37,417 nucleotides of DNA from a virus. The stretch's first letter is position 1; each line of letters begins with the position of its first letter. Position numbers and translations under genes: made by a program. Of this stretch, positions 188-29,745 are shown piece by piece. The notes below the pieces were generated by a model. It searched no databases, was not told where the DNA came from, and worked only from the letters and a program-made list of their open reading frames with translations. The DNA is taken from the UHGV virus genome UHGV-0367149; one strand, 5' to 3'.

Positions 188-1483
188 TTAATTTTTCATT
201 GCTTCGTTATGGGGCATGGTTGGGGCAAACTCGCTTAACTGTGTATTTAACAAAGCTACCTGTGCATTATTGTTTTCAGACATCCATTTTCCGTATACCT
301 GAAATACCATTTGCGCATCTGCATGGCCCATCTGGTTTGCTATAAATGCCGGGTTAGCACCAGCTGTCAGCGACCAGCAGGCATAAGTATGTCTCGACTG
401 ATATGATTTTCGATGGCGGAGTCCGGCACGTTTTATCGCTGCGTCCCACATCTGCCTTATTGAGTCAACGGTAAAATGGTCACCATAATTTTTTACTCTC
501 GCTGACACTTCAGGTTGAAAAACAAAGGTGCATTTTTGTTTTTCTGTTCTGCCATACTCTCTGAGGTGAACATCAATGATATGCTCTTTGCTCAGTCTCG
601 TTAATGTCATCTGACTCCGGAGAGCGTCGATTGCTGGCTTAATAAGATGAATGACCCGATTGGTTCCCGCCTGTGTTTTTGGTACCGTGAAACGGTCTTT
701 TGCTAAATTTCTCCTGATCATCATTGTTCCATTTTTCAGATCTATGTCCTCCCATCCAAGTGCACACAGCTCACCAGGGCGAACGCCAGTATAAACAGAA
801 ACACACCATAAATTTTTGGCTTGCTGATTTCTGCACGCATCGATAAGACGGATGAATTCCTCCCGCGAAAGAGGATCCGGAATGGTTCTTGATTCCTTTA
901 ATGGCGAGATCCCCTTAAACGGGTTATCTGCCAAGTAACCGTTATCAACACCAAACTGGAACACGGCGTTAAGATTTGTCATGTAATTATTTACAGTTAC
1001 AGCCGATCTCCCTGGTTGTGTAACAATATAGTTACTTTTGGGGATCTGGTATCCAGTCAGTAGCTCTTTACGAACCTCCAGTAATTTTTCTTTATTAATC
1101 GATGAGGCAAGATTTTTTTCACCGATTATGCTCAGGATATTTTTGATGACGGCACGGTATGTGTTGAGTGATGTTTTTGCGACTTCAGTTTCTTTCAGTG
1201 CCAGAAATTTTTCAGCCAGTTCTTTTATGGTTAAATCTTGTCGGGCCTCACCAAATTTTTCCAGATTGCGTGAGGAGGGAAACTGTTTTGCATAGTCGAA
1301 AACACCAGTTTTTATTGCGTAACAAACAGAGGCGCGTAGTTCACCTGCAACGCGCCTGTTTTTTGCTGTGTCAGGAACCCCCAGATTTTCCCTGACTCTT
1401 ACGCCTTTATAAACAAACCAGATACGTAATTTCCCTCCATGGTTTTCCACGCCTGTCGGATATTTCATTTCAACTTCTCTCAT
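188..1483 (-). CDS. int: phage integrase (tyrosine recombinase)
   Basis: 431-aa ORF at the prophage end. C-terminal region has a tyrosine-recombinase-like signature (...RHTYACWSL...GHADAQMVFQVYGKW). Start could instead be Met6 (1468). Confidence 0.88.
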   Translation of the reverse strand: MREVEMKYPTGVENHGGKLRIWFVYKGVRVRENLGVPDTAKNRRVAGELRASVCYAIKTGVFDYAKQFPSSRNLEKFGEARQDLTIKELAEKFLALKETEVAKTSLNTYRAVIKNILSIIGEKNLASSINKEKLLEVRKELLTGYQIPKSNYIVTQPGRSAVTVNNYMTNLNAVFQFGVDNGYLADNPFKGISPLKESRTIPDPLSREEFIRLIDACRNQQAKNLWCVSVYTGVRPGELCALGWEDIDLKNGTMMIRRNLAKDRFTVPKTQAGTNRVIHLIKPAIDALRSQMTLTRLSKEHIIDVHLREYGRTEKQKCTFVFQPEVSARVKNYGDHFTVDSIRQMWDAAIKRAGLRHRKSYQSRHTYACWSLTAGANPAFIANQMGHADAQMVFQVYGKWMSENNNAQVALLNTQLSEFAPTMPHNEAMKN

Positions 1484-1502
1484 TAGTTAGTGTGGCTTTT
1501 AG

Positions 1503-1754
1503 TCAAGTAAGATGACGTCTTGGTCTCGCTGATGCCTGGCGCTCAATCCAGCGATCAATTTCTTCCAGGTTGTAAAAGCATGGGCTGTTATCCCATGGCA
1601 TACCGTCATGAGCGACATGCTTATATTCCCTTCCTTCCATAAACGATTTTTCCCGGGCCTTTTTTAACGTACCTTTTTTTATTCCTTTCAGCGCAATTAA
1701 CTGCTCTTCGGATACCCATTTGCCGGGAGAGACAATCATGATTACTTCGCTCAT
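1503..1754 (-). CDS. excisionase-like / AlpA-type small DNA-binding protein
   Basis: 83-aa ORF immediately upstream of int on the same strand, the usual xis position. Small basic protein. Assignment is by position and composition only. Confidence 0.5.
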   Translation of the reverse strand: MSEVIMIVSPGKWVSEEQLIALKGIKKGTLKKAREKSFMEGREYKHVAHDGMPWDNSPCFYNLEEIDRWIERQASARPRRHLT

Positions 1755-1826
1755 CGATTTCTTTATCTCTTACATTAGACGAGCGCCGGTTGCAGAATAC
1801 CAGTCACAACCGGCGACAGTTGAACA

Positions 1827-4298
1827 TTAAGAATCAGCCTGACTCGGGATCAGTTTTTGCCAGATAACTGAAACGTATTTTGCCTGGTAACGGGCGTCAT
1901 CAAGTGCATTATGGCGCTCACCTTCGAATGGAATAGCCGTTCTGGCATCGAAGTCTATGGCTTTCCCCAGCTCAACGATTGTGCGTACATCGCGATCGTT
2001 GTAGTAACGCCACGGGCAGGGGATCCCCTGCCGTTCGTATGAACGGCGCAAAATCGTGTTGTCGAAGTTGGCTCCATTTCCCCAGACCTGAACAAAAAAT
2101 TCACCGGAGTTTTCGTCGATAAATTCCCGCAATTGTAACAGTGCATCATCTAACGGGATTTCATCGGTCATAATGGCAGATTGCGCTTCGCGTGATTGCT
2201 TAAGCCACCATTTAATGGTGTCCCGATCAATGACTCCGCCAGCAGTTTCCAGATCGATAGTCTTACTAAATTCCGGTCCCATATCTCCGGTTTGCGGATC
2301 GAAAAATATTGCACCTATTGAGATGATCGGGGCATCAGGATTTTTTCCCATGGTTTCAAGGTCTATCATTAGATGGTCACACGTCCTGCTGGTGGATGTG
2401 ATTTCGTGATGACCGTTCACCTTAATTGAGTGATCTGCCGTCTCGCCAGTTTCATTATCGCTATCGTGATGCTGATTGCCGCCAGCATTCTCCTTGTGTG
2501 GATGTTCAGCGCCTTCCATTTTCTCCGGATCATCTTCCTGAACTTCAACCTGATACTCTTCATCGAATGTTTCTTGGTATGTTGCGTCGCCCATCACCGC
2601 GCCACAATCAGGGCAGTTGCCACCGCCGGTCTGACCGCAGGCGGTGCAGACTTTTTCCACTTCCTGATGCGCCACTGGCTCAGGCTGTTTCGTTTCTGGC
2701 TCGTTTTGTAACGCATTTGGGCTGTTTTGTTCCGCTTTTTGGTAGTTCCGTTCCGATTCATGCTGGTTCTGGTTCACAGAATCGCGGGTCTGGATCCCCT
2801 TAACCCATTTCGGATCATTCGGGTCACTAATCCCTTCAACAAATTCACCACGTGATGCAGCAAGCAACTTATCGGCGTCAGGCTGGCTGATATTGGCTGC
2901 CTGCATAATTTTGTTTACTTCGTCAGCGGTAACTTTTATCGGCTCTGGTTGTTCTGAATCTTCAGCGGTATCTACATTTTGCGGTAAGCCCGTGTATGTG
3001 CCATTTTTTCGGGCAAAATATTCTTCTTTTGTGATTTCAGTGGCGCCAGCAGCCAGTGCCTTATCCAGACCAGAAAGTTTGTTTGCGCGACCGTATTTTT
3101 CTCCGTCCTTATCTGCGAAGAGGAAATAGAACGGCCCCTCACGCTCTACAGATGGTTCAGCTTCCGGCGCGGTTTCATTTTTTGGGATATCAGATACCTC
3201 AGTTTCCACTGCATCAGTTTGTGTTTCTGATGACTGGAGAACATCAACAGTGCCCAGGTCTGTTTCTTCATTCTCAAACACGCCCTTTGTCGTCAGGTAT
3301 TCGCAGATATATTTGTTCAGTGCTATGGGATCTTTGTGAATGTCGATCGGACGCTCACGGACAAGGCCAAAAATAGTTTGGCGGTCGTAGCGAAGGGCAT
3401 CAGGCTGTTTGCGCATTGATGCCGAGATACGCTTCCAGTCTTCGCGGTCGTTGTCGATAACTTCATTTTTTGCCCAGCGATGGATGCTGCCATCAATGTT
3501 TCCGGCATCCACATCACCAGGCCAGAGAGCGTAGGCCAGTTCGTCATCCAGTGTTTTCCATGTCTGCTTGTATTCGCGATGGATGGCAGCAATGACCGGG
3601 CTGATTTTTCCTGTTGAATTTTCAGTGTACTGTTGATTGGCTCTGGCGCGGGCGAGATCAACAACAGACGTGTATTTTCCGGTTTCCTTGCGTTCACCTT
3701 CGCGACGTTTTTTCCAGATGCGCATCTCTGCCTGAATTTCGGGCCATTTAGCACCAGGAATACATTTATGCTTAACCCACCCAATGGCGTGCAACTTAAG
3801 CTCCGGATACATGGCGTTAACTTCTGGCATTTTCATCAACGCTTCAACGATATGTCCGTCGAATGTTGCCATGTCTTCCTGCAACAATTCCTGTGCGCTA
3901 ATAACCATATCAACGGTGATGTTTTCACATGTGTCGAACTTAACCATGACAGCGTTCTGTACTTCAGGGGCCAGCTTGTCAAAAGTGACGTTCATCGGAT
4001 CGGATTCAGTCTCAACCGGGACAAAAGAAGCAGACTCCTCATCCCAGCGGTTTTCCTGCATATATTCAGCATCCCATGAATCGAGGGCAGGGCGGGGTAT
4101 GCCAGGTTTATCCTCGCAGACAATAAATTTATAAGCGCAGTCCTGAGCAGCCGGATAATGTTCCAGGAATTGCCAGTGAAATTTTGCGCGGGCGCGACGT
4201 TCATCACCGGCTTCAATGGCAGTGGCTACAGCGACGGCACCTTCTTCCTTTATTGCCTGTTCGCCCGGAATGGCGGCGCAAATAAAGACTTTACTCAT
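1827..4298 (-). CDS. exodeoxyribonuclease VIII-like protein (RecE/YdfE family) with C-terminal DnaQ-like 3'-5' exonuclease domain
   Basis: 823-aa ORF. Central segment ...PDADKLLAASRGEFVEGISDPNDPKWVKGIQTRD... recalled as RecE-like. C-terminus has DEDDh-type motifs (MIDLETMG..., ...WGNGANFD..., ...HNALDDARY). A CxxC...CxxC zinc ribbon (CTACGQTGGGNCPDCG) lies between them. Confidence 0.75.
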   Translation of the reverse strand: MSKVFICAAIPGEQAIKEEGAVAVATAIEAGDERRARAKFHWQFLEHYPAAQDCAYKFIVCEDKPGIPRPALDSWDAEYMQENRWDEESASFVPVETESDPMNVTFDKLAPEVQNAVMVKFDTCENITVDMVISAQELLQEDMATFDGHIVEALMKMPEVNAMYPELKLHAIGWVKHKCIPGAKWPEIQAEMRIWKKRREGERKETGKYTSVVDLARARANQQYTENSTGKISPVIAAIHREYKQTWKTLDDELAYALWPGDVDAGNIDGSIHRWAKNEVIDNDREDWKRISASMRKQPDALRYDRQTIFGLVRERPIDIHKDPIALNKYICEYLTTKGVFENEETDLGTVDVLQSSETQTDAVETEVSDIPKNETAPEAEPSVEREGPFYFLFADKDGEKYGRANKLSGLDKALAAGATEITKEEYFARKNGTYTGLPQNVDTAEDSEQPEPIKVTADEVNKIMQAANISQPDADKLLAASRGEFVEGISDPNDPKWVKGIQTRDSVNQNQHESERNYQKAEQNSPNALQNEPETKQPEPVAHQEVEKVCTACGQTGGGNCPDCGAVMGDATYQETFDEEYQVEVQEDDPEKMEGAEHPHKENAGGNQHHDSDNETGETADHSIKVNGHHEITSTSRTCDHLMIDLETMGKNPDAPIISIGAIFFDPQTGDMGPEFSKTIDLETAGGVIDRDTIKWWLKQSREAQSAIMTDEIPLDDALLQLREFIDENSGEFFVQVWGNGANFDNTILRRSYERQGIPCPWRYYNDRDVRTIVELGKAIDFDARTAIPFEGERHNALDDARYQAKYVSVIWQKLIPSQADS

Positions 4299-4391: not shown

Positions 4392-4583
4392 TTAAAGACC
4401 TGCCGGGATTTCGATATTATCCTGGTGAATAACTTTATCGACCGGGTAACAGTTACCGGGAATTTTCTGTTCGGTTGCTGCAGTCATACACTCCTGCATT
4501 GTCCTGTGAACACTGACTGCAATATCAACTGGCACTCCGGAAACAAGAAAAACTGTCAGAACAAGCGCAAATGCTGAATTCAT
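4392..4583 (-). CDS. ydfD: Qin-prophage small protein YdfD
   Basis: 63-aa product from the internal ATG at 4583 (MNSAFALVLTVFLVSGVPVDIAVSVHRTMQECMTAATEQKIPGNCYPVDKVIHQDNIEIPAGL), recalled as K-12 YdfD. Start overlaps the dicB stop (ATGA). Confidence 0.7.
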   Translation of the reverse strand: MNSAFALVLTVFLVSGVPVDIAVSVHRTMQECMTAATEQKIPGNCYPVDKVIHQDNIEIPAGL

Positions 4584-4768
4584 TGTGCACATCCTTTTGG
4601 CATCAGACGTAAACGAGCCAGCATTGAAACAATGCATATTTTATTTAATAGCTCCCGTTCTTGTTTTCTCTTGTTAATGGCATCTTCAGTAAATACAGGG
4701 TTACTGATAGTGACACCAATTTCAAAACAACCTTCAGACGTATTAACGTTTGGTAATAACGTTTTCAT
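4580..4768 (-). CDS. dicB: cell-division inhibitor DicB
   Basis: 62-aa product from the ATG at 4768 (MKTLLPNVNTSEGCFEIGVTISNPVFTEDAINKRKQERELLNKICIVSMLARLRLMPKGCAQ), matching DicB as recalled. GAGGA Shine-Dalgarno 7 nt upstream. The ORF track gives a longer GTG-initiated frame. Confidence 0.85.
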   Translation of the reverse strand: MKTLLPNVNTSEGCFEIGVTISNPVFTEDAINKRKQERELLNKICIVSMLARLRLMPKGCAQ

Positions 4769-4937
4769 TATCGCGTCCTCAACAATGAATTTTGTGATGC
4801 AGTGCCTGGTGCCTCCAGGTGACGTTAACCAGTTAACAATTAACGTCGGATACAGAGAATCCACCCATAACACTGTTTTTGGTTTTAACTGTTCCGCGTG
4901 CGCTTAGCCGTATTCACCGCATCACAAAATTCACTTT

Positions 4938-4995
4938 AAAAAGGGCGGCAGAGCAGTCACGGAGTAAAACTGATACCGCCAAACGTCACCAGAAA
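4938..4995 (-). ncRNA. dicF: DicF small regulatory RNA (ftsZ-targeting), including its intrinsic terminator
   Basis: Minus-strand sequence UUUCUGGUGACGUUUGGCGGUAUCAGUUUUACUCCGUGACUGCUCUGCCGCCCUUUUU matches DicF as recalled. GC stem plus U-tract at the 3' end. Lies between the ydfB-like gene and dicB, as in Qin. Confidence 0.8.
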
Positions 4996-5254
4996 ATTGA
5001 TAACAGAGGGCGTTGCAGCGGGGTTGTCACTTAAGCGTATGGTCAACCTGACAACCCGGTGTCCTCAACGGGGAAGGAATAACCCCGCCATACTTACCGC
5101 CGCGCCATTTTGCGGGTTGCCACAACCGGAAGCGCACGGTCGAATTAAATTTAACGACACCGTACAGTGAGACGAACTTCGCCGTGCGCTTTCGTGTTGT
5201 GTGCCTGCTTTTAACCACGTCAGGCGAGGTGGTATCCTTAAAATCACCACAGTT

Positions 5255-5830
5255 TTAAGGATTCATTAAGCAATGTCGCAACCACCAATAAATCCGCTTA
5301 AGAACATGAAAATTGATTACTGGTATAAAGCTCTTACAGTTGTTGGCGCAGCGTTGTTTGTCTTTAATGGAACGTCTTTTTTTGACAGATATCCCGTTGT
5401 TCCATTGGGTTTTTTGTCCTCCGGCATCTTTTTTATTGGTTTGGGGGAGTGGATTAATCACCCTCTCATAGTGAGATTTATTGGTCCTGGAGTTTGGACT
5501 CGTGGATATAATCGTTCTTCGTGCGCACTCGGTATCATCTTCGACATACTTGGTTGTTTCCTGATTGTTACAGGAGTCGTCAAGTTCTTCTGATGTAAAA
5601 CCGCAAATGGGGCACGTAACGGGAATTTTGAAAAGCGTTTCTCCGGGTTCCAGAACAAAATTTTCTGCGGTCTGATTTTGCTTCTCATATTTGTGCTCCG
5701 CGTCATTGTGAGAGCACATTCTTATTCTGAGTGCCTGTTTAAACTCACTGAAGCTGAGAGCTTCTTCGCCTTCGGCAAGGCCTTCGAAGTATTCTTCGTA
5801 AGCCTTTTCCATGATTGTGTCGAAATCCAT
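5255..5830 (-). CDS. hypothetical protein at the ydfB/ydfC position of the dicB operon (extended ORF with a CPICG motif)
   Basis: ATG at 5830 lies 1 nt after the ydfA stop with an AGGTGAG Shine-Dalgarno. N-terminus MDFDTIMEKAYEEYFEGLAEGEEALSFSEFKQAL... is acidic and protein-like. The 3' two-thirds is low-complexity and overlaps an antisense ORF, so the true 3' end is uncertain. Confidence 0.4.
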   Translation of the reverse strand: MDFDTIMEKAYEEYFEGLAEGEEALSFSEFKQALRIRMCSHNDAEHKYEKQNQTAENFVLEPGETLFKIPVTCPICGFTSEELDDSCNNQETTKYVEDDTECARRTIISTSPNSRTNKSHYERVINPLPQTNKKDAGGQKTQWNNGISVKKRRSIKDKQRCANNCKSFIPVINFHVLKRIYWWLRHCLMNP

Positions 5831-5831
5831 A

Positions 5832-5987
5832 TCACTCACCTGAGTTTCTTTCCAGCCAGCGACGGGCACCATTTTCGGTTTTAAACGTTTTGCTTTTGGT
5901 ATACGTCATCGCGGTGAACGTGCCGTCCTGGTTGGGGAACACGCCACATACCAGAGATTCGCTGTTGCCAAGATCGATAGTATCCAT
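5832..5987 (-). CDS. ydfA: Qin-prophage small protein YdfA
   Basis: 51-aa product from the ATG at 5987 (MDTIDLGNSESLVCGVFPNQDGTFTAMTYTKSKTFKTENGARRWLERNSGE), recalled as near-identical to K-12 YdfA. Immediately downstream of the DicA-like gene. Confidence 0.72.
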   Translation of the reverse strand: MDTIDLGNSESLVCGVFPNQDGTFTAMTYTKSKTFKTENGARRWLERNSGE

Positions 5988-6179
5988 GCTGACCTCATTT
6001 CCCCTTAACGCCGGGGTAGCGGAACTGTTTGCTGAGAACACCGTGCGGTGTCTTGATGGAGGTAATTTAGTTTTCTCATTATTTTTCGTCAAGGTTTTTT
6101 GATGAGAAAACTCAAGTGTTGGCGCAAGATAAAGCCAATACATTGAAATGTAAGGCTTTAAAATTTTGTGAAGGGATGA

Positions 6180-6587
6180 TTATTGATGCTTGTTGCGTTT
6201 GCGAGCCTCTAATAGCTCGGTGAACAGGCGATTAAAATTCTCAACGCGGGCGCGGAGTTCGCTGAGTTGTGCTTGTTGCTCTGATTTAGGAAGTGCGCGA
6301 TACAAACGCAGCATCTCTAACTCATCTTCCGATAAGTCTAAGGCACTATCGAGTGAAACAGGGGGAGCTGGTGTTTTGTCCTCGTCGCCAAACAGTATCC
6401 AAGTTGGTGAACATTGCAATACCTCGGCGAGGCGATGCAAATTTTGCCCGCGCGGGGCTGTATGGTCACTTTCCCATAATGAAATTGATGAGCCAGATAC
6501 GCCAGCAGCTTTGCTTAAACCGTTTTGACTTAAGCCTACCTGCTTACGTCTTTCTCTAATGCGTTGACCTAAAGTTTTCTCGTTCAT
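6180..6587 (-). CDS. DicA-like HTH (XRE-family) prophage repressor
   Basis: Product from the ATG at 6587 (MNEKTLGQRIRERRKQVGLSQNGLSKAAG...LQCSPTWILFGDEDK...) is colinear with K-12 DicA as recalled, roughly half identical. Divergent from the Cro-like gene. Confidence 0.85.
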   Translation of the reverse strand: MNEKTLGQRIRERRKQVGLSQNGLSKAAGVSGSSISLWESDHTAPRGQNLHRLAEVLQCSPTWILFGDEDKTPAPPVSLDSALDLSEDELEMLRLYRALPKSEQQAQLSELRARVENFNRLFTELLEARKRNKHQ

Positions 6588-6664
6588 ATTTAGATATCTT
6601 AATAACCCTTGACTTGAGATTCCTTGAGTGATTAGCATTGAGAAAACTCAATATTGGAGGTGCG
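6588..6664. promoter_or_regulatory. divergent promoter/operator region between the DicA-like repressor and DicC-like Cro genes
   Basis: 77-bp AT-rich intergenic region between divergently oriented repressor and Cro-like genes. Contains TTGACTTGAGATTCCTTGAGTGATTAGCATTGAGAAAACTCAATATTG with repeated TTGAG/CTCAA half-site-like elements. Operator positions not resolved. Confidence 0.45.
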
Positions 6665-6892
6665 ATGTTTAAATCAGACGTAATTAATTTTTACGGTACG
6701 AAAGCCAAAGTAGCGAAAGCTGCTGGCGTTGACCCATCTGCTGTTTCTCAATGGCAAGAGCTGGTTCCTGAAGGTCGCGCGATGCGTCTACAGGAGGCAT
6801 CTGGCGGCGAGCTTCTGTATGATCCCAAGGTTTATGACGAATATCGTAAGACGAAGCGGGCGGGGCGGTTGAACAATGAAAATCACTCCTGA
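6665..6892 (+). CDS. DicC-like Cro-type small regulator
   Basis: ATG at 6665 with GGAGG Shine-Dalgarno (6656-6660). 75-aa product MFKSDVINFYGTKAKVAKAAGVDPSAVSQWQ...; its C-terminal half resembles DicC as I recall it, but I am unsure of that recollection. Confidence 0.7.
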   Translation: MFKSDVINFYGTKAKVAKAAGVDPSAVSQWQELVPEGRAMRLQEASGGELLYDPKVYDEYRKTKRAGRLNNENHS

Positions 6893-8803: not shown

Positions 8804-10540
8804 AATGTCCCCAGACAATTCTCTGGGGGATTTTTCATGATCAAAGAGACTGTTACGATGAGTCATAAGGAACTCCACCGACTTCAGATTATTCAGGAGT
8901 CAATTAATCGACATATTACTCAGGAACAAGCTGCGGCACGCATTGGCATTTCTATTCGGCAGGTTAAACGTCTGGTGCAACGGTATAGAAATGAAGGGCC
9001 TTCTGGTCTGGTTTCCCACCGACGTGGAAAGCGTCCTAATAATTCCTTTTCTACTGAATTCAGAGCAACAGTAATTTCACTCCTCAAAGGCCGTTACGCT
9101 GATTTTGGACCTACGTTTGCGTGCGAAAAATTGCGCGAGATACACGGTTTATCTTTATCCGTTGAAACTCTCAGAAAGTGGATGATAGAAGAGGGGTTAT
9201 GGCGTGAACGCCGTCGTAAAATTGCCCGTATATATCAACGCCGCATGCGACGACCATCTTACGGTGAACTGATCCAGATTGATGGCTCACCTCATGACTG
9301 GTTTGAAAATCGAGGCCCCAGATGTACACTGATCGTTTTCATTGATGATGCCACCAGTGCGTTGATGGCGTTGCGTTTTGTGCCTGCTGAAACAACCCGG
9401 GCTTACATGGAAACCCTCCGGGGTTACCTTAATGATCATGGCGTACCGCTCGCTCTCTACTCTGATAGACACAGTATATTCAGGGTAAATAACCCAGAGC
9501 GGGAAGGTGAGCTGACCCAGTTCACTCGTGCGATAAAGACACTGGGCATCGAGCCAATCCATGCCAACAGCCCGCAGGCAAAAGGGCGGGTAGAGCGCGC
9601 CAATCAGACACTACAGGACAGGCTGGTCAAAGAAATGCGGCTTCAGAATATCAGTGATATTGAAACAGCAAATGCATGGTTGCCGACCTTTATTGAAGCC
9701 TATAACAACCGGTTCGCTACGTCGCCTCATACTACTGATAATGCTCATCTTGATGTGCACCATTCTGAAGAGGAACTGGGTTATATCTTCAGCCTACAGG
9801 CGAAGCGCGTTCTGTCTAAAAATCTCACTTTCCAGTACAAAAGCAGTGCGTTTCAGGTACGCAGTGAGGGCCGGGGATATCGACTTAGGCATTCGGTTGT
9901 TACTGTATGTGAGAACTTTGACGGTGAAATTAACGTTCTGTATGACGGGAAAGCGCTGGGCTGGGAAAAGTATGTTGATGGCCCGGAGCCTATACCACTG
10001 GATGATGAAAAGAGTGTCCATGAACGAGTGGATAATGCCCGTATTGATTTACGCTCAAAATACTATGTTAAATCTAAAGCTGACCATCCCTGGCTTACGC
10101 GCCGAACGCAAAGTCATCAGCAAGTTAAGCCCCCGAAGTTACCTAAAAAGAAGCCTGATCCCGATAAAATAGATTGAAACCAAGATCGATTCGGTTGAGT
10201 GCATATCCATTCATAGGGTAGATTCTTAAGTCGCGTTTCTGGTGTTCATTTTCGGGTGGTTTGTTACTTGTTTTACCGGGGATATGCCAGAAACGCGCTG
10301 AGTCAGTCTGGGCGGTGCGCGTAATGAGGCGTTATGGTAAATAGCCTATGCTAATGTCCGCTAAGAGCAAGAAGCGGAAGTTGGCAGTTTTGTGGACTGT
10401 CCCCACAAAAGTGACTACAGAAATAGTTGCAATTCATAATTGATCATGGGTTGTCAGTTAAACTCGTGGCGATTTAAATAGACTAATTGGGAGGGCGTCC
10501 ATTACTTATATCTTGTAATGTTAACTATCAGAAATGATAC
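8780..10540 (+). mobile_element. insertion sequence (single-ORF DDE transposase, IS481/ISNCY-like); ends not resolved
   Basis: Transposase ORF 8837-10177 plus about 350 bp of non-phage-like flank. I could not identify terminal inverted repeats or a target-site duplication by eye, so the boundaries are approximate. Confidence 0.4.
8837..10177 (+). CDS. IS transposase (N-terminal HTH, rve/DDE integrase core)
   Basis: 446-aa ORF. N-terminal HTH (...AAARIGISIRQVKRLVQRY...). Candidate DDE triad in ...LIQIDGSPHDW..., ...ALYSDRHSIF..., ...AKGRVERANQTLQ... Confidence 0.85.
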   Translation: MIKETVTMSHKELHRLQIIQESINRHITQEQAAARIGISIRQVKRLVQRYRNEGPSGLVSHRRGKRPNNSFSTEFRATVISLLKGRYADFGPTFACEKLREIHGLSLSVETLRKWMIEEGLWRERRRKIARIYQRRMRRPSYGELIQIDGSPHDWFENRGPRCTLIVFIDDATSALMALRFVPAETTRAYMETLRGYLNDHGVPLALYSDRHSIFRVNNPEREGELTQFTRAIKTLGIEPIHANSPQAKGRVERANQTLQDRLVKEMRLQNISDIETANAWLPTFIEAYNNRFATSPHTTDNAHLDVHHSEEELGYIFSLQAKRVLSKNLTFQYKSSAFQVRSEGRGYRLRHSVVTVCENFDGEINVLYDGKALGWEKYVDGPEPIPLDDEKSVHERVDNARIDLRSKYYVKSKADHPWLTRRTQSHQQVKPPKLPKKKPDPDKID

Positions 10541-11478: not shown

Positions 11479-11718
11479 ATGGGTAGCATTAACCTGCGTA
11501 TTGACGATGAACTTAAAGCGCGTTCTTACGCCGCGCTTGAAAAAATGGGTGTAACTCCTTCTGAAGCGCTTCGTCTCATGCTCGAGTATATCGCTGACAA
11601 TGAACGCTTGCCGTTCAAACAGACACTCCTGAGTGATGAAGATGCTGAACTTGTGGAGATAGTGAAAGAACGGCTTCGTAATCCTAAGCCAGTACGTGTG
11701 ACGCTGGATGAACTCTGA
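11479..11718 (+). CDS. relB: RelB antitoxin
   Basis: 79-aa ORF MGSINLRIDDELKARSYAALEKMGVTPSEALRLMLEYIADNERLPFKQTLLSDEDAELVEIVKERLRNPKPVRVTLDEL, matching K-12 RelB as recalled. Confidence 0.92.
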   Translation: MGSINLRIDDELKARSYAALEKMGVTPSEALRLMLEYIADNERLPFKQTLLSDEDAELVEIVKERLRNPKPVRVTLDEL

Positions 11719-12005
11719 TGGCGTATTTTCTGGATTTTGACGAGCGGGCACTAAAGGAATGGCGAAAGCTGGGCTCGACGGTACGTGAACAGTTGAAAAA
11801 GAAGCTGGTTGAAGTACTTGAGTCACCCCGGATTGAAGCAAACAAGCTCCGTGGTATGCCTGATTGTTACAAGATTAAGCTCCGGTCTTCAGGCTATCGC
11901 CTTGTATACCAGGTTATAGACGAGAAAGTTGTCGTTTTCGTGATTTCTGTTGGGAAAAGAGAACGCTCGGAAGTATATAGCGAGGCGGTCAAACGCATTC
12001 TCTGA
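11718..12005 (+). CDS. relE: RelE mRNA-interferase toxin
   Basis: 95-aa ORF MAYFLDFDERALKEWRKLGSTVREQLKKKLVEVLESPRIEANKLRGMPDCYKIKLRSSGYRLVYQVIDEKVVVFVISVGKRERSEVYSEAVKRIL. Start overlaps the relB stop. Confidence 0.92.
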   Translation: MAYFLDFDERALKEWRKLGSTVREQLKKKLVEVLESPRIEANKLRGMPDCYKIKLRSSGYRLVYQVIDEKVVVFVISVGKRERSEVYSEAVKRIL

Positions 12006-12076
12006 ACCAAAGCATGACATCTCTGTTTCGCACCGAAGGTGACACTTCTGCTTTGCGTTGACAGGAGAAGCAGGCT

Positions 12077-12232
12077 ATGAAGCAGCAAAAGGCGATGTTA
12101 ATCGCCCTGATCGTCATCTGTTTAACCGTCATAGTGACGGCACTGGTAACGAGGAAAGACCTCTGCGAGGTACGAATCCGAACCGGCCAGACGGAGGTCG
12201 CTGTCTTCACAGCTTACGAACCTGAGGAGTAA
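12077..12232 (+). CDS. hokD: HokD (RelF) Hok-family membrane toxin
   Basis: Not in the ORF track (51 aa). ATG at 12077 to TAA at 12230-12232 encodes MKQQKAMLIALIVICLTVIVTALVTRKDLCEVRIRTGQTEVAVFTAYEPEE, matching HokD as recalled. Directly downstream of relE. Confidence 0.88.
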   Translation: MKQQKAMLIALIVICLTVIVTALVTRKDLCEVRIRTGQTEVAVFTAYEPEE

Positions 12233-12448: not shown

Positions 12449-12700
12449 ATGATGAACATCGAAGAACTGCGTAAAATTTTTTGTGAAGATGGCCTCTATG
12501 CTGTGTGCGTTGAAAATGGAAATCTTGTTAGTCATTACCGCATTATGTGTTTGCGAAAGAATGGGGCTGCGTTAATTAATTTTGTGGATGCTCGGGTCAC
12601 GGACGGATTTATCTTGCGCGAAGGTGAGTTTGTCACTTCATTACAGGCATTGAAAGAGATCGGAATAAAAGCTGGCTTTTCTGCTTTTTCAGGAGAATAA
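12449..12700 (+). CDS. rem: Rem (Qin-prophage small protein)
   Basis: 83-aa ORF downstream of hokD, the position and length of K-12 rem. Sequence identity is recalled only weakly. Confidence 0.6.
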   Translation: MMNIEELRKIFCEDGLYAVCVENGNLVSHYRIMCLRKNGAALINFVDARVTDGFILREGEFVTSLQALKEIGIKAGFSAFSGE

Positions 12701-15496: not shown

Positions 15497-15796
15497 AAAA
15501 ATTCCTTAATACTGATAACTTGGCGCACTATACACACGTTCCTGAAGAAAGCTATAGTTTTTTGATGGGGTTGAAGATGGCTGGATGTCTAAAATAAACA
15601 TTGCTTCATATGTTCAACTATGCGTTAATGATTGCGTCGGTTTGAAGAACAGACGATATACGAAGTAGTTTACTAAAGCAGTTCTCATTTCAGGTGTTAT
15701 TCACTTATTCCTTCTTTGAGTCTCTCCAATTAAGTACGAAGTCGTTTCTGTTATGCAAACCATTTATGCCGAAAGGCTCAAGTTAAGGAATGTAGA

Positions 15797-16012
15797 ATGT
15801 CAAATAAAATGACTGGTTTAGTAAAATGGTTTAACGCTGATAAAGGTTTCGGCTTTATTTCTCCTGTTGATGGTAGTAAAGATGTGTTTGTGCATTTTTC
15901 TGCGATTCAGAATGATAATTATCGAACCTTATTTGAAGGTCAAAAGGTTACCTTCTCTATAGAGAGTGGTGCTAAAGGTCCTGCAGCAGCAAATGTCATC
16001 ATTACTGATTAA
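15797..16012 (+). CDS. cspB: cold-shock protein CspB
   Basis: 71-aa [74 protein letters not shown] with canonical RNP1/RNP2 motifs. Divergent from cspF, as in Qin. Confidence 0.85.
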
Positions 16013-16294
16013 AATTCATCGCTCGTCTGTATACGATAACGAAGAAGGCTGATGCCTGAGTAGAGATACGGACAGAGTAGTGAATATTGGATCTCTTTAA
16101 TAAAAAGTAAGGAGGTCCAATACATGAAACAATGGCTAGCATATTTGGCAAAATCTTAATCAGGAAAAGTATGCTAACCATTGTGGTGAAGTGCAGGTTT
16201 GCTGCATGAATAGTTTTACAGCAGAAGCTAACTGCTGGCATGGCAAAACAAAGTGCGTAAGTGGATGACTCCCACAAAAAGCACCACAATCTCA

Positions 16295-18321: not shown

Positions 18322-18683
18322 GGTAATATTAAATCGGAACATTTACATCGCGGAATGTAAAATTTAAATAAAAAGGACTCTTCCATGAGCCAAAATTCCT
18401 GAAATCTTAAGGGTAAGATAAAAGGTCTTAATCAGAATGACACGTTTTATTAATAAATAAAGCTATTCTTTCATTGCTGTGTTTTTCTTTACAAAAGTAA
18501 TCCTTGCCATGGGTGGTTAATCATGCGTTAATGGTGTTCTGGTTTGTTACAAATTTATCTGAAGCAGTCATTGTTATAATTTTATTATTTGTACCTCTTG
18601 AGATTTCCTTGTTGGTTTTTCTCTCTGATATTTTTTTTCGGACCATTCTGCCCAAGGGCTAATTTCTTCAAAAGGTAATAATT

Positions 18684-18896
18684 ATGTCTAACAAAATGAC
18701 TGGTTTAGTGAAATGGTTTAACCCTGAAAAAGGTTTTGGTTTCATCACGCCGAAAGATGGCAGCAAAGATGTGTTTGTCCATTTCTCAGCAATTCAGAGC
18801 AACGATTTCAAAACATTAACTGAGAATCAGGAAGTTGAATTTGGTATTGAGAACGGACCTAAAGGTCCTGCCGCTGTTCATGTAGTGGCGCTTTGA
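18684..18896 (+). CDS. cspI: cold-shock protein CspI
   Basis: 70-aa [73 protein letters not shown]. Long upstream untranslated region (18322-18683), typical of cold-shock genes. Confidence 0.85.
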
Positions 18897-19102
18897 GGTA
18901 GACAATATTACAAACCATATTCACTTTAGATGCCCGTGTTGTCATGGTTCCCAGTATAGAACATCATCTTTTGATGTTTCTGACATGAATCCTTTCGGGG
19001 CAAAATGTATCTTTTGTAAATCAATGATGATTACATTTGATAATATTTCACAATACTTAAATGCCAGCCGTCTGTCGTTGGATTTAAAAAAGTGAAAATG
19101 AA

Positions 19103-20984: not shown

Positions 20985-21504
20985 ATGGAAGTCAACAAAA
21001 AGCAGCTGGCTGACATTTTCGGTGCGAGTATCCGTACCATTCAGAACTGGCAGGAACAGGGAATGCCCGTTCTGCGAGGCGGTGGCAAGGGTAATGAGGT
21101 GCTTTATGACTCTGCCGCCGTTATAAGATGGTATGCCGAAAGGGATGCTGAAATTGAGAACGAAAAGCTGCGCCGGGAAGTTGAAGAACTGCGGCAGGCC
21201 AGCGAGGCAGATCTCCAGCCAGGGACTATTGAGTACGAACGCCATCGACTTACGCGTGCGCAGGCCGACGCACAGGAACTGAAGAATGCCAGAGACTCCG
21301 CTGAAGTGGTGGAAACCGCATTCTGTACTTTCGTGCTGTCGCGGATCGCAGGTGAAATTGCCAGTATTCTCGACGGGATCCCCCTGTCGGTGCAGCGGCG
21401 TTTTCCGGAACTGGAAAACCGACATGTTGATTTCCTGAAACGGGATATCATCAAAGCCATGAACAAAGCAGCCGCGCTGGATGAACTGATACCGGGGTTG
21501 CTGA

Positions 21505-21530
<26 letters not shown>
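20985..21530 (+). CDS. nu1: terminase small subunit Nu1
   Basis: 181 aa MEVNKKQLADIFGASIRTIQNWQEQGMPVLRGGGKGNEVLYDSAAV..., near-identical to lambda gpNu1 as recalled. Confidence 0.95.
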
Positions 21531-25211
<3,681 letters not shown>

Positions 25212-25231
<20 letters not shown>

Positions 25232-26531
25232 TCTCCCGCATATTGCCAGCATGGCCTTTAATGAGCCGCTGATGCTTGAACCCGCCTATGCGCGGGTTTT
25301 CTTTTGTGCGCTTGCAGGCCAGCTTGGGATCAGCCGCCTGACGGATGCGGTGTCCGGCGACAGCCTGACTGCCCAGGAGGCACCCGCGACGCTGGCATTA
25401 TCCGGTGATGATGACGGACCACGACAGGCCCGCAGTTATCAGGTCATGAACGGCATCGCCGTGCTGCCGGTGTCCGGCACGCTGGTCAGCCGGACGCGGG
25501 CGCTGCAGCCGTACTCGGGGATGACCGGTTACAACGGCATTATCGCCCGTCTGCAACAGGCTGCCAGCGACCCGATGGTGGACGGCATTCTGCTCGATAT
25601 GGACACACCGGGCGGAATGGTGGCGGGAGCATTTGACTGCGCTGACATCATCGCCCGTGTGCGTGACATAAAGCCGGTATGGGCGCTGGCCAACGACATG
25701 AACTGCAGTGCAGGTCAGCTGCTTGCCAGTGCCGCCTCCCGACGTCTGGTCACGCAGACCGCCCGGACAGGCTCCATCGGCGTCATGATGGCTCACAGTA
25801 ATTACGGCGCTGCGCTGGAGAAACAGGGCGTGGAAATCACGCTGATTTACAGCGGCAGCCATAAGGTGGATGGCAACCCCTACAGCCATCTTCCGGATGA
25901 CGTCCGGGAGACACTGCAGTCCCGGATGGATGCAACCCGCCGGATGTTTGCGCAGAAGGTGTCGGCATATACCGGCCTGTCCGTGCAGGCTGTGCTGGAT
26001 ACCGAGGCTGCAGTGTACAGCGGTCAGGAGGCCATTGATGCCGGACTGGCTGATGAACTTGTCAACAGCACCGATGCGATCACCGTTATGCGTGATGCAC
26101 TGGATGCACGTAAATCCCGTCTCTCAGGAGGGCGAATGACCAAAGAGACTCAATCAACAACTGTTTCAGCCACTGCTTCGCAGGCTGACGTTACTGACGT
26201 GGTGCCAGCGACGGAGGGCGAAAACGCCAGCGCGGCGCAGCCGGACGTGAACGCGCAGATCACCGCTGCGGTTGCGGCAGAAAACAGCCGCATTATGGGG
26301 ATCCTCAACTGTGAGGAGGCTCACGGACGCGAAGAACAGGCCCGCGTGCTGGCAGAAACCCCCGGTATGACCGTGGAAACGGCCCGCCGCATTCTGGCCG
26401 CAGCACCACAGAGTGCACAGGCGCGCAGTGACACTGCGCTGGATCGTCTGATGCAGGGGGCACCGGCACCGCTGGCTGCAGGTAACCCGGCATCTGATGC
26501 CGTTAACGATTTGCTGAACACACCAGTGTAA
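25212..26531 (+). CDS. C: head maturation protease / scaffold C
   Basis: GTG at 25212 after GGAGGAGAAGA gives 439 aa (VTAELRNLPHIASMAFNEPLMLEP...), lambda gpC-like. 20-nt overlap with B, as in lambda. The ORF track shows a longer upstream-extended frame. Confidence 0.9.
25926..26531 (+). CDS. nu3: scaffolding protein Nu3 (in-frame internal start within C)
   Basis: ATG at 25926, in the C frame 714 nt from the C start, the lambda Nu3 offset as recalled (MDATRRMFAQKVSAYTGL...). Inferred from lambda gene organisation. Confidence 0.6.
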   Translation: MDATRRMFAQKVSAYTGLSVQAVLDTEAAVYSGQEAIDAGLADELVNSTDAITVMRDALDARKSRLSGGRMTKETQSTTVSATASQADVTDVVPATEGENASAAQPDVNAQITAAVAAENSRIMGILNCEEAHGREEQARVLAETPGMTVETARRILAAAPQSAQARSDTALDRLMQGAPAPLAAGNPASDAVNDLLNTPV

Positions 26532-26540
26532 GGGATGTTT

Positions 26541-26873
26541 ATGACGAGCAAAGAAACCTTTACCCATTACCAGCCGCTGGGCAACAGTGACCCGGCTCAT
26601 ACCGCAACCGCGCCCGGCGGATTGAGTGCGAAAGCGCCTGCAATGACCCCGCTGATGCTGGACACCTCCACCCGTAAGCTGGTTGCGTGGGATGGCACCA
26701 CCGACGGTGCTGCCGTTGGCATTCTGGCGGTTGCTGCTGACCAGACCAGCACCACACTGATGTTCTACAAGTCCGGCACGTTCCGTTATGAGGATGTGCT
26801 CTGGCCGGAGGCTGCCAGCGACGAGACGAAAAAACGGACCGCGTTTGCCGGAACGGCAATCAGCATCGTTTAA
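26541..26873 (+). CDS. D: head decoration protein D
   Basis: 110 aa [43 protein letters not shown]..., lambda gpD-like. Confidence 0.92.
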
Positions 26874-26928
26874 CCTTACCCTTCATCACTAAAGGCCGCC
26901 TGTGCGGCTTTTTTTATGGGATTTTTTT

Positions 26929-27954
26929 ATGTCGATGTACACAACCGCCCAGCTGCTGGCGGCAAATGAGAAGAAATTTAAGTTTGATCCGCTGTTTCTG
27001 CGTCTCTTTTTCCGTGAGAGCTATCCCTTCACCACGGAGAAAGTCTATCTCTCACAAATTCCGGGACTGGTAAACATGGCGCTGTACGTTTCGCCGATTG
27101 TTTCCGGTGAGGTTATCCGCTCCCGTGGCGGCTCCACCTCTGAATTTACACCGGGATATGTCAAGCCGAAGCATGAGGTGAATCCGCAGATGACCCTGCG
27201 TCGCCTGCCGGATGAAGATCCGCAGAATCTGGCGGACCCGGCTTACCGCCGCCGTCGCATCATCATGCAGAACATGCGAGACGAAGAGCTGGCCATTGCT
27301 CAGGTCGAAGAGATGCAGGCAGTTTCTGCTGTGCTTAAGGGCAAATACACCATGACCGGTGAAGCCTTCGATCCGGTTGAGGTGGATATGGGCCGCAGTG
27401 CGGCGAACAACATCACACAGTCCGGTGGTACGGAGTGGAGCAAGCGTGACAAGTCCACGTATGACCCGACCGACGATATCGAAGCCTATGCGCTGAACGC
27501 CAGCGGAGTGGTGAATATCATCGTGTTTGATCCGAAAGGCTGGGCGCTGTTCCGTTCCTTCAAAGCCGTCAGGGAGAAGCTGGATACCCGTCGCGGCTCT
27601 AATTCCGAGCTGGAGACAGCGGTAAAAGACCTGGGCGAAGCGGTGTCCTATAAGGGGATGTATGGCGATACGGCGATCGTCGTGTATTCCGGACAGTACG
27701 TGGAAAACGACGTCAAAAAGAACTTCCTTCCGGACAACACGATGGTGCTGGGGAACACTCAGGCACGCGGTCTGCGCACCTATGGCTGCATTCAGGATGC
27801 GGACGCACAGCGCGAAGGTATTAACGCCTCTGCCCGCTACCCGAAAAACTGGGTGACCACCGGCGATCCGGCGCGTGAGTTCACCATGATTCAGTCAGCA
27901 CCGCTGATGCTGCTGGCTGATCCTGATGCGTTCGTGTCCGTACAACTGGCGTAA
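26929..27954 (+). CDS. E: major capsid protein E
   Basis: ATG at 26929 gives 341 aa (MSMYTTAQLLAANEKKFKFDPLFLRLFFRESYPFTTEKVYLSQIPGLVNMALYVSP...), lambda gpE-like. Confidence 0.95.
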   Translation: MSMYTTAQLLAANEKKFKFDPLFLRLFFRESYPFTTEKVYLSQIPGLVNMALYVSPIVSGEVIRSRGGSTSEFTPGYVKPKHEVNPQMTLRRLPDEDPQNLADPAYRRRRIIMQNMRDEELAIAQVEEMQAVSAVLKGKYTMTGEAFDPVEVDMGRSAANNITQSGGTEWSKRDKSTYDPTDDIEAYALNASGVVNIIVFDPKGWALFRSFKAVREKLDTRRGSNSELETAVKDLGEAVSYKGMYGDTAIVVYSGQYVENDVKKNFLPDNTMVLGNTQARGLRTYGCIQDADAQREGINASARYPKNWVTTGDPAREFTMIQSAPLMLLADPDAFVSVQLA

Positions 27955-27995
27955 TCATGGCCCTTCGGGGCCATTTTCTCTCTGTGGAGGAGTCC

Positions 27996-28391: not shown

Positions 28392-28402
28392 CGGGAGGCG
28401 CT

Positions 28403-29738: not shown

Positions 29739-29745
29739 GGACGCT

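What the first reader, a model, noticed from the sequence alone, without database searches (positions are those of the whole stretch)
4392..6892. Complete Qin-type dicA/dicC - ydfA - DicF - dicB - ydfD module, including an sRNA absent from the ORF track
The immunity region is of DicA/DicC type, not lambda cI/cro. Downstream of the repressor, on the same strand, are ydfA, a ydfB-position gene, the DicF sRNA (4938-4995, recognisable by sequence and its terminator), dicB and ydfD. DicB (MinC-dependent) and DicF (ftsZ mRNA targeting) are two independent division inhibitors normally silenced by DicA. An ORF-only annotation misses DicF entirely. Here the repressor is a diverged homologue of K-12 DicA, so operator specificity may differ.
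Basis: partly seen in the sequence, partly recalled or inferred. Interest (0 to 1): 0.45.

Follow-up and report, generated by a model that had tools for sequence, protein, structure and literature searches.

The report
Qin-type dicA/dicC–DicF–dicB prophage module

Summary
Confirmed, and already known. All operon parts lie on the minus strand. DicF is at 4995..4943 (Rfam RF00039, 76.7 bits against a gathering score of 48, E 2e-15). It is identical to K-12 dicF and is followed by a U5 tail. dicB is 62/62 identical to K-12, ydfD 61/63 and ydfA 49/51.

The repressor (6587..6180) passes the NCBIfam DicA model. It is 57% identical to K-12 DicA and 100% identical to DicA of the functional phage mEp460_ev081. 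dicC (6665..6892, + strand) is 70% identical to K-12 DicC.

The K-12 operator Oc is absent. A 13-mer, TGAGAAAACTMAA, occurs exactly three times in the window.

"Complete" is overstated. ydfB is cut after codon 34 and ydfC is missing. A 518-bp cassette replaces them. It carries an unannotated + strand gene (5273..5593) for a conserved small membrane protein. The antisense frame of that gene stays open in every virus-borne lineage checked except Bcep176.

The window is a Qin-site lambdoid prophage that is far more complete than K-12 Qin. No expression data were available.

The parts
6180..6587 (-). dicA-type repressor, 135 aa, of the mEp460_ev081 immunity type
   Evidence: NF007257 at 239 bits against a cut-off of 101. 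Pfam finds HTH_3 only, with no peptidase domain. It is 57% identical to K-12 DicA and 100% identical to the repressor of phage mEp460_ev081.
6665..6892 (+). dicC, the Cro-like regulator, 75 aa, transcribed divergently from dicA
   Evidence: NF007282 at 165 bits against a cut-off of 130 and PF14549 P22_Cro. It is 70% identical to K-12 DicC. The N-terminal third has 12 identities in 34 aligned columns and the rest 41 in 42.
6639..6651 (+). Operator-like 13-mer TGAGAAAACTCAA. It is part of the palindrome TTGAGAAAACTCAA and directly follows the -10 of the dicC promoter-like site (-35 TTGACT 6609-6614, -10 TAGCAT 6633-6638).
   Evidence: The motif occurs 3 times in the window against 0.14 expected, and 0 of 100 shuffles reached 3. 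It holds the same position relative to the promoter as Oc does in K-12 (sequence; Oc defined in PMC3441716).
6103..6115 (+). Operator-like 13-mer TGAGAAAACTCAA, just upstream of the -35 of the dicB promoter-like site
6066..6078 (-). Operator-like 13-mer TGAGAAAACTAAA, covering the spacer and the -10 of the dicB promoter-like site (-35 TTGACG 6092..6087, -10 TAAATT 6069..6064, minus strand)
   Evidence: Similarity to K-12 resumes at 6058, right after this promoter.
5832..5987 (-). ydfA (DUF1391), 51 aa
   Evidence: PF07151, E 9e-28. 49/51 identical to K-12 YdfA.
5255..5830 (-). ydfB' fusion ORF. Codons 1-34 are ydfB (5830..5729). The frame then runs on with no stop to 5255, through the whole + strand gene. 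An internal ATG at 5719 would give 154 aa with a conserved CPxCG motif.
   Evidence: Similarity to K-12 ends at 5730. RefSeq calls it a ydfB pseudogene missing its C-terminus. The N-terminal motif is conserved in L007, L013, L098 and L143. The frame is kept open.
5273..5593 (+). Gene for a 106-aa membrane protein with three predicted helices. It lies on the opposite strand, inside the 518-bp segment (5213-5729) that replaces the ydfB 3' end and ydfC. It carries no CDS in the RefSeq record that is collinear with this window.
   Evidence: Similarity in the + frame is 72.8 bits over the full length to mEp390 and 53.5 bits to Bcep176 gp33. The antisense frame gives only 20 bits over 21 aa. There are 60 homologues of about 102-110 aa in Yersinia, Herminiimonas, Reinekea and others. 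The invariant residues are W17-Y18-K19-A20 (D15 and Y16 in at least 90% of sequences), G56, G58-E59-W60, N62-H63-P64, G87 and G94. AlphaFold2 mean pLDDT is 86.7.
4943..5132 (-). Equivalent of the 190-nt pre-DicF species made by RNase III. The 5' end is placed by length only.
   Evidence: There is only one substitution against K-12 between 5143 and 4930. The predicted long stem has its 3' arm ending near 5132. The processing pathway comes from PMC10448788.
4943..4995 (-). DicF sRNA, 53 nt. A U5 terminator tail follows at 4942..4938.
   Evidence: RF00039 at 76.7 bits, E 2e-15. 53/53 identical to K-12 dicF. The fold shows a single-stranded 5' end of 15 nt plus a terminator hairpin, -15.9 kcal/mol.
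4580..4768 (-). dicB, 62 aa
   Evidence: PF05358 E 2e-40 and NF049927 at 132.8 bits. 62/62 identical to K-12 DicB.
4392..4583 (-). ydfD (DUF1482), 63 aa, lysis protein
   Evidence: PF07358 E 2e-25. 61/63 identical to K-12 YdfD.
12449..12700 (+). rem, the antirepressor of DicA in K-12. It lies outside the reported span but belongs to the same circuit.
   Evidence: 83/83 identical to K-12 Rem. Its function in K-12 is from PMC10448788.

Best explanation
The region is the early-left (PL-like) control module of a Qin-site lambdoid prophage of E. coli.

Shown by sequence:
- A short DicA-family repressor and a Cro-like DicC are transcribed divergently.
- Three copies of a 13-mer lie on the two flanking promoter-like sites.
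- On the minus strand, the site equivalent to dicBp leads into ydfA, a ydfB' fusion ORF, a nearly unchanged pre-DicF region, DicF with its terminator, dicB and ydfD. After these come an intact exonuclease, xis and int.

Inferred from work on K-12:
1. DicA dimers on the operators keep dicBp and the dicC promoter off.
2. Repression is lifted by the antirepressor Rem, which is present and identical here, or by stochastic or stress-driven switching through DicC.
3. The polycistronic RNA is cut by RNase III to a 190-nt species and by RNase E to the 53-nt DicF, whose 3' end is set by the terminator.
4. DicF, with Hfq, blocks translation of ftsZ and of manX, xylR and pykA.
5. Read-through RNA gives DicB, which directs MinC to the septum and inhibits ManYZ. 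It also gives YdfD, which causes lysis.

The immunity cassette (window 6058-6764) is a heteroimmune swap relative to K-12. It has different recognition helices and different operators but the same architecture, and it is the type carried by phage mEp460_ev081.
For: - Identity of the parts: family models and residue-level comparison with K-12.
- Mosaic boundaries against K-12: 7155-6764 at 97.7%, 6764-6058 diverged, 6058-5730 at 97%, 5730-5212 unrelated, 5212-4277 at 96.8%.
- Operators: the 13-mer occurs 3 times against 0.14 expected, only at the two promoter-like sites. The K-12 motif is absent. The positions relative to -35/-10 mirror K-12.
- DicA is 100% identical to that of a functional temperate phage, and the whole intergenic region is nearly identical.
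- Processing region: one substitution across the 190-nt precursor, with the stem retained.
- Rem is identical.
- The mechanism in K-12 is taken from PMC10448788, PMC3441716 and PMC5069750.
Against: - Nothing here shows expression.
- Binding of this DicA to the 13-mer is inferred only from its position and its repetition.
- Rem has been shown to act on K-12 DicA, which is only 57% identical to this one.
- In K-12, DicF comes solely from dicBp transcripts. Here those transcripts must cross a 518-bp foreign cassette that holds a convergently oriented gene, which could lower or change DicF and DicB output.
- The consensus scan found no more promoter-like sites than in shuffled sequence (4 against 3.7), so the promoter calls rest on their correspondence in position with K-12.
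Confidence: 0.9

Rival explanations
1. The parts are all present, but the operon is uncoupled. The inverted membrane-protein cassette between ydfA and pre-DicF blocks or strongly attenuates transcription from dicBp, by convergent transcription, antisense RNA or polarity. DicF and dicB would then be silent relics, or would depend on another promoter.
For: ydfB is truncated and ydfC is replaced by 518 bp unrelated to K-12, carrying a real gene on the opposite strand. In K-12 no promoter other than dicBp feeds DicF (PMC10448788).
Against: - DicF, pre-DicF, dicB and ydfD are kept at 97-100% identity with intact ORFs.
- The same arrangement is in 427 complete genomes and, at 99.4%, in the deposited phage genome HannyBb.
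- No terminator-like site was found on the minus strand within 5212-5730.
- The operon-sense frame across the cassette has no stop codon in the enterobacterial prophage lineages, with four rare exceptions among about 165 E. coli-type loci. This is what one would expect if translation through the cassette is needed to keep downstream genes expressed.
Confidence: 0.1
2. The immunity region works like lambda CI/Cro: an SOS-cleavable repressor inactivated by RecA-stimulated self-cleavage.
For: The layout is the same as in lambdoid immunity regions, with divergent repressor and cro genes and operators at two promoters.
Against: The repressor is 135 aa, and Pfam finds only HTH domains with no S24 peptidase domain. 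It passes the DicA model. K-12 DicA is controlled by an antirepressor, not by cleavage (PMC10448788), and that antirepressor gene is present here.
Confidence: 0.02
3. The Rfam hit is a chance or decayed DicF-like sequence and not a functional sRNA gene.
For: None found, apart from the lack of expression data.
Against: E 2e-15 over the full length of the model. 53/53 identity to the experimentally characterised K-12 DicF, the same flanks, and the terminator hairpin with its U5 tail.
Confidence: 0.02

Closest known systems
dicA/dicC-dicBF locus of the cryptic prophage Qin, E. coli K-12 MG1655 (b1569-b1576)
   Same: - Same chromosomal site next to rspB.
- Same gene order and strands.
- DicF 53/53, DicB 62/62, YdfD 61/63, YdfA 49/51 and Rem 83/83 identical.
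- The 190-nt pre-DicF region differs at one base.
   Different: - The immunity cassette is swapped: DicA is 57% identical, the DicC N-terminus is diverged and the operators are different.
- ydfB is truncated and ydfC is absent, replaced by a 518-bp cassette.
- Downstream, ydfE, insD and intQ are pseudogenes in K-12. Here there is an intact 823-aa exonuclease, xis and int, plus head and tail genes.
Temperate phage mEp460_ev081 (LR597641.1), noted in PMC10448788 as a functional phage carrying dicA/C, dicF, dicB and rem
   Same: DicA is 135/135 identical. The dicC-dicA-dicBp region is almost base-for-base the same, including all three 13-mers. DicF scores the same 76.7 bits.
   Different: The slot between ydfA and pre-DicF holds other cargo: a 125-aa minus-strand ORF and a small + strand ORF. 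Coverage of the 2.7-kb query is 78%.
Escherichia phage HannyBb (PP925841.1)
   Same: The whole 2.7-kb module matches at 99.4%, including the membrane-protein cassette. The DicF hit scores 72.5 bits.
   Different: Its annotation calls the 205-aa antisense ORF and not the 106-aa gene, and it does not annotate DicF.
Lambda / P22 immunity region (cI-cro, PL and PR with operators)
   Same: It works the same way: divergent repressor and Cro-like genes, with operators overlapping a leftward and a rightward early promoter-like site (analogy drawn in PMC10448788).
   Different: The repressor is short and has no self-cleavage domain. In K-12, induction goes through an antirepressor.

Membership tests
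DicF RNA (Rfam RF00039) | Covariance-model score at or above the gathering threshold over the full model | tested here: met
   76.7 bits against 48, model positions 1-52 of 52, E 2.1e-15.
DicF RNA (Rfam RF00039) | Single-stranded 5' region followed by a Rho-independent terminator hairpin and a U tract | tested here: met
   The MFE fold leaves nt 1-15 unpaired, then forms a hairpin followed by UUUUU at 4942..4938.
DicF RNA (Rfam RF00039) | Lies in the untranslated stretch upstream of dicB, within an operon headed by ydfA and controlled by DicA | tested here: met
   Order on the minus strand: dicA, ydfA, ydfB', DicF, dicB, ydfD.
DicF RNA (Rfam RF00039) | [quoted passage not shown] | not testable with these tools
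   Only the sequence basis could be checked. The precursor differs from K-12 at one base and DicF is identical. ftsZ is not in the window.
DicA repressor (NCBIfam NF007257) | Score above the curated cut-off over the full length of 135 aa | tested here: met
   239.4 bits against 101, residues 1-135 on profile positions 1-135.
DicA repressor (NCBIfam NF007257) | HTH domain without an S24 self-cleavage domain | tested here: met
   Pfam reports HTH_3, HTH_31 and HTH_19 only.
DicA repressor (NCBIfam NF007257) | Binds the K-12 operator Oc (TTGTTAGTCATAACTAACAA) | tested here: not met
   No Oc-like site in the window. The only match with up to 3 mismatches is at 18677, which is at chance level. This concerns specificity, not family membership: a different 13-mer occupies the equivalent positions.
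DicC (NCBIfam NF007282) | Score above the curated cut-off; divergent from dicA | tested here: met
   165.3 bits against 130. It lies on the + strand, 77 bp from the dicA start.
DicB (Pfam PF05358 / NCBIfam NF049927) | Full-length match to the 62-aa family | tested here: met
   136.8 and 132.8 bits. 62/62 identical to K-12.
YdfD lysis protein (Pfam PF07358, DUF1482) | Full-length match, with the ORF overlapping the dicB stop | tested here: met
   88.7 bits. 61/63 identical to K-12. The ORFs at 4392..4583 and 4580..4768 overlap by 4 nt.
Complete K-12 dicBF operon (ydfA-ydfB-ydfC-dicF-dicB-ydfD) | Full-length ydfB (42 aa) | tested here: not met
   Identity stops after codon 34 and the frame continues into foreign sequence. 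RefSeq marks it as a pseudogene.
Complete K-12 dicBF operon (ydfA-ydfB-ydfC-dicF-dicB-ydfD) | ydfC present | tested here: not met
   No similarity to K-12 between 5730 and 5212.
Lambda CI-type SOS-cleavable repressor | C-terminal S24 peptidase domain | tested here: not met
   No Peptidase_S24 hit. The protein is 135 aa.

The most novel reading that the evidence does not exclude
The 518-bp cassette that replaced ydfB'/ydfC is a two-strand unit under unusual selection.

The + strand encodes a conserved small membrane protein that also occurs outside phages. The operon-sense minus strand carries an ORF with a conserved N-terminal CPxCG motif, and its frame is kept free of stop codons across the entire antisense gene.

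The most novel reading is that ribosomes must translate through the antisense-embedded gene so that early-operon RNA escapes Rho-dependent polarity. In that case DicF, dicB, ydfD, exo, xis and int would all depend on this 'kept-open' frame. An alternative is that both strands encode functional proteins.

A second, smaller open point is that Rem is 100% conserved while DicA is only 57% identical to the K-12 protein. This predicts that Rem recognises the better-conserved C-terminal half of DicA.
Probability: 0.3. Interest if true: 0.5.

Novelty: already known. Interest (0 to 1): 0.15.

Why it matters
The main finding matters little, because it re-identifies a textbook prophage module.

It does show that automatic annotation drops DicF: there is no DicF feature in the near-identical RefSeq record.

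It also shows that the dicBF operon travels with at least two immunity types. That is relevant to anyone who extrapolates K-12 DicA/Oc regulation to other strains. The immunity type found here is in 797 of 5426 complete E. coli genomes, including O26 and other Shiga-toxin-producing strains.

The by-product is the part that could repay experiments. It is an unannotated conserved membrane-protein gene embedded antisense in the operon that feeds DicF, with an antisense frame kept open in six virus-borne lineages.

Tried and rejected
- **K-12 operator search.** I searched for the K-12 operator motif with up to 3 mismatches. There was one match, far from the module, at chance level.
- **Relaxed 13-mer search.** With 3 mismatches there were 22 matches against 19.7 expected, so weaker 'third operators' cannot be called.
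- **Terminator scan.** The simple scan did not report the DicF terminator. It only accepts loops of 3-8 nt, and the DicF hairpin is bulged with a 9-nt loop. The fold and the Rfam structure show it.
- **The 205-aa minus ORF as the only gene of the ydfB/ydfC slot.** Rejected. Over the overlap, the + frame is the conserved one: 72.8 bits against 20 bits. phrog_35040 merely collects gene-caller output for this ORF. Its homologues number only 23, at 47-100% identity; the few that carry a source name are all from E. coli.
- **Function of the 106-aa protein.**
  - No hit in Pfam, NCBIfam, PHROGs or PADLOC.
  - The AlphaFold2 model is confident, but Foldseek against the PDB found nothing (best E 0.45).
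- **Selection on the minus-frame protein sequence within the overlap.** Codon identity at conserved residues is not above the saturation expectation (z 0.8-1.4). There is no evidence that the sequence is constrained, only that the frame stays open.
- **Annotation borrowed from NZ_CP019944.** It is valid only up to window position 27173, after which the two sequences are unrelated. Features read from that record beyond this point (a second integrase, a primase, a TIR protein) do not apply to this window and were dropped.
- **Literature search.** A search for a described overlapping-gene pair at ydfB found nothing specific.
- **Viral-contig scans.** Two IMG/VR scans returned mostly near-identical E. 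coli copies and only two new divergent lineages.
Full report
**1. What is there**

The window is a lambdoid prophage at the Qin site of E. coli.
- Positions 1-27173 are collinear, at 99.89% identity, with E. coli DSM 103246. In that genome the prophage lies directly next to rspB, as Qin does in K-12.
- Beyond 27173 the window continues into intact capsid and tail genes.

A covariance-model scan of the whole window found three Rfam matches at gathering score.
- One is DicF, at 4994..4943 on the minus strand. It scores 76.7 bits against a gathering score of 48, with E 2.1e-15, over the full model.
- With the extra 5' U at 4995 the sequence equals the 53-nt K-12 dicF.
- The fold leaves the first 15 nt unpaired and forms the terminator hairpin, which is followed by U5 at 4942..4938.

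The protein genes all pass their family models.

| Gene | Coordinates | Family match | Identity to K-12 |
|---|---|---|---|
| dicA | 6587..6180 (-) | NF007257, 239 bits (cut-off 101) | 57% |
| dicC | 6665..6892 (+) | NF007282, 165 bits (cut-off 130) | 70% |
| ydfA | 5987..5832 (-) | PF07151 (DUF1391) | 49/51 |
| dicB | 4768..4580 (-) | PF05358 | 62/62 |
| ydfD | 4583..4392 (-) | PF07358 (DUF1482) | 61/63 |

**2. Mosaic structure relative to K-12**

blastn against MG1655 gives five blocks.

| Window | Similarity to K-12 | Content |
|---|---|---|
| 7155-6764 | 97.7% | ydfX-like gene and the 3' two-thirds of dicC |
| 6764-6058 | diverged | 5' end of dicC, intergenic region, dicA, dicB promoter region |
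| 6058-5730 | 97% | ydfA and ydfB codons 1-34 |
| 5730-5212 | none | foreign cassette |
| 5212-4277 | 96.8% | pre-DicF, DicF, dicB, ydfD, start of the exonuclease |

The first divergent block is a clean exchange of the immunity cassette.
- Its left junction falls right after the -10 of the dicB promoter-like site.
- Its right junction falls inside dicC.
- DicA diverges most in the HTH half: 24 identities in 56 aligned columns, against 51 in 81 in the C-terminal half.
- DicC diverges in its first 33 residues: 12 in 34 columns, against 41 in 42.

**3. Operators**

The K-12 operator Oc, TTGTTAGTCATAACTAACAA, was defined by mutations and by an in vivo binding assay (PMC3441716). Nothing like it occurs in the module.

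Instead, TGAGAAAACTMAA occurs exactly three times in 37 kb. The expectation is 0.14, and none of 100 shuffles reached three. The three copies are:
- 6639-6651, directly following the -10 of a promoter-like site facing dicC;
- 6103-6115, just upstream of the -35 of a promoter-like site facing ydfA;
- 6066-6078, over the spacer and the -10 of that same site.

K-12 has its own operator sequences at the same relative places. Binding itself was not tested.

This immunity type is not new.
- The repressor is 135/135 identical to that of mEp460_ev081, a functional temperate phage, and the whole control region is nearly identical.
- PMC10448788 cites that phage as carrying dicA/C, dicF, dicB and rem.
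- The cassette is present in 797 of 5426 complete E. coli genomes.

**4. How it most likely works**

The pathway is taken from K-12 studies.
1. dicBp is repressed by DicA.
2. DicF arises only from the polycistronic dicBp transcript. RNase III produces a 190-nt species and RNase E the 53-nt form.
3. Rem is an antirepressor of DicA.
4. DicC supports a bistable switch (PMC10448788).
5. DicF targets ftsZ, manX, xylR and pykA. DicB acts through MinC and also blocks ManYZ-dependent phages.
6. YdfD is a lysis protein (PMC8835842, from the abstract listed).

In the window:
- The 190-nt precursor region differs from K-12 at a single base.
- The long stem is predicted, with its 3' arm ending near 5132, where a 190-nt species would begin.
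- Rem (12449-12700) is 83/83 identical to the K-12 protein.
- The repressor has no S24 domain, so induction by an antirepressor, not by self-cleavage, is expected.

All steps after 'the sequences are present' are inference. No expression data were available.

**5. The ydfB/ydfC slot**

'Complete' is too strong. ydfB stops matching after codon 34 and ydfC is gone. The 518-bp replacement is found in 806 of 5426 genomes.

*The + strand gene*
- It lies at 5273-5593 and encodes 106 aa. It has no CDS in the collinear RefSeq record, and only 2 of the 30 sampled records list a 'hypothetical protein' under this segment.
- Its translation aligns over the full length with a frame in phage mEp390 (72.8 bits) and with Bcep176 gp33 (53.5 bits). 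The opposite frame gives only 20 bits over 21 residues.
- Sixty homologues of about 102-110 aa were found, in Yersinia, Herminiimonas, Reinekea and metagenomes.
- The invariant residues are W17-Y18-K19-A20, G56, G58-E59-W60, N62-H63-P64, G87 and G94. D15 and Y16 are present in at least 90% of sequences.
- The model has three helices and a beta hairpin, with mean pLDDT 86.7. No solved structure matches it, and no library names the family.
- In a Yersinia prophage and in two further enterobacterial prophages the gene sits next to the repressor gene and converges on it, as it does here.
- This suggests a gene expressed in the lysogen, possibly for exclusion of other phages. That is speculation.

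*The antisense frame*

The minus-strand frame across this gene is the ydfB' fusion ORF. An internal ATG at 5719 would give 154 aa.
- This frame is codon-aligned with the + gene, so it has a stop wherever the + gene uses TTA, CTA or TCA.
- None of these codons occurs in six divergent virus-borne lineages. Four share 38-58% amino-acid identity with the window: Yersinia, the P0013 type, mEp390 and the window itself. The fifth is the 88%-identical P0003 type, and the sixth is an environmental phage contig, L098 (53% GC).
- A seventh viral contig, L099, also has none. At 61% GC this says little, and its antisense ORF from an ATG covers only 2495-2740.
- Five homologues outside viral contexts, at 28-45% GC, have 3 to 17 such codons.
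- Bcep176, a phage, has 3.
- With the window's own codon usage, the chance of having none is 1.6-4.2% per copy. The product for four copies is 6.6e-7 if they are independent, which overstates the significance because the copies are related.
- Four of about 165 E. coli-type loci do carry one such codon.
- Within the overlap the minus-frame protein is poorly conserved, and synonymous sites of the + gene show no excess constraint.
- Just outside the overlap the minus ORF has a conserved motif, xCPxCGxxSxE(L/F), in five lineages.

The frame thus looks kept open, not kept in sequence. One explanation is that translation of the early-operon RNA through the embedded gene prevents polarity on downstream genes, here DicF and dicB. 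A true dual-coding pair is the alternative. Neither was tested.

**6. Verdict**

- The module, the sRNA, the division inhibitors and this immunity type are all already described. Novelty is 'already known' and interest is low.
- One correction: the K-12 gene set is not complete.
- Two additions:
  - the heteroimmune operator set;
  - the antisense cassette in the path of the transcript that yields DicF.

Noticed in passing
window 5273-5593 (+): A gene for a conserved 106-aa protein with three predicted helices (invariant WYKA and GxGEWxNHP motifs). It has no CDS in the collinear RefSeq record and lies on the opposite strand inside the dicBF operon. Homologues occur in other prophages, next to the repressor gene, and also outside phages. 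No known family or fold matches.
   Followed up: yes
window 5255-5830 (-), and loci L004, L007, L013, L098, L143: The codon-aligned antisense frame of that gene contains no stop in six divergent virus-borne lineages. Five homologues outside viral contexts have 3-17 stops and phage Bcep176 has 3. The minus ORF has a conserved CPxCG motif just outside the overlap. The frame seems to be kept open, not conserved in sequence.
   Followed up: partly
window 5234-5262: A perfect 10-bp inverted repeat, ATCCTTAAAA (9 nt) TTTTAAGGAT, lies between the + gene start codon and pre-DicF and overlaps the minus ORF stop codon. A similar repeat precedes the homologous gene in locus L014 (3460-3490).
   Followed up: no
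window 4736-4945 (-): A match below threshold to Rfam STnc100 (RF02076): 34.6 bits against a gathering score of 47, E 4e-5, full model. It covers the DicF-dicB spacer and the first dicB codons and includes the hairpin CACCUGGAGGCACCAGGCAC. The Salmonella sRNA candidate may be the leader of a dicB-like gene.
   Followed up: partly
window 12449-12700 (+): The antirepressor gene rem is 100% identical to K-12 Rem, although the DicA it should act on is only 57% identical. The better-conserved C-terminal half of DicA is a candidate contact surface.
   Followed up: partly
window 188-4298 and 20985-37417: Unlike K-12 Qin, this prophage has an intact integrase, excisionase, 823-aa exonuclease, terminase, portal, capsid and tail genes. 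It may be close to functional. Phage HannyBb shares the early region at 99.4%.
   Followed up: partly
window 15636-16028 and 18538-18923 (+): Two cspA thermoregulator matches (RF01766, 158.8 and 112.8 bits). They are the 5' leaders of the prophage cold-shock genes cspB and cspI.
   Followed up: no
window 8858-9907 (+): A truncated ISEsa1-family transposase, directly after the replication-region genes. It may have removed part of the replication module.
   Followed up: no
L012 2235-3016 (mEp460_ev081) and L143: The slot between ydfA and pre-DicF holds different cargo in different phages: ydfB/ydfC in K-12, a 125-aa ORF in mEp460_ev081, and the antisense cassette followed by ydfC in L143. It is a variable cargo site.
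   Followed up: partly
window 11479-12232: The toxin-antitoxin genes relBE and hokD lie between the immunity region and rem, as in K-12 Qin.
   Followed up: no
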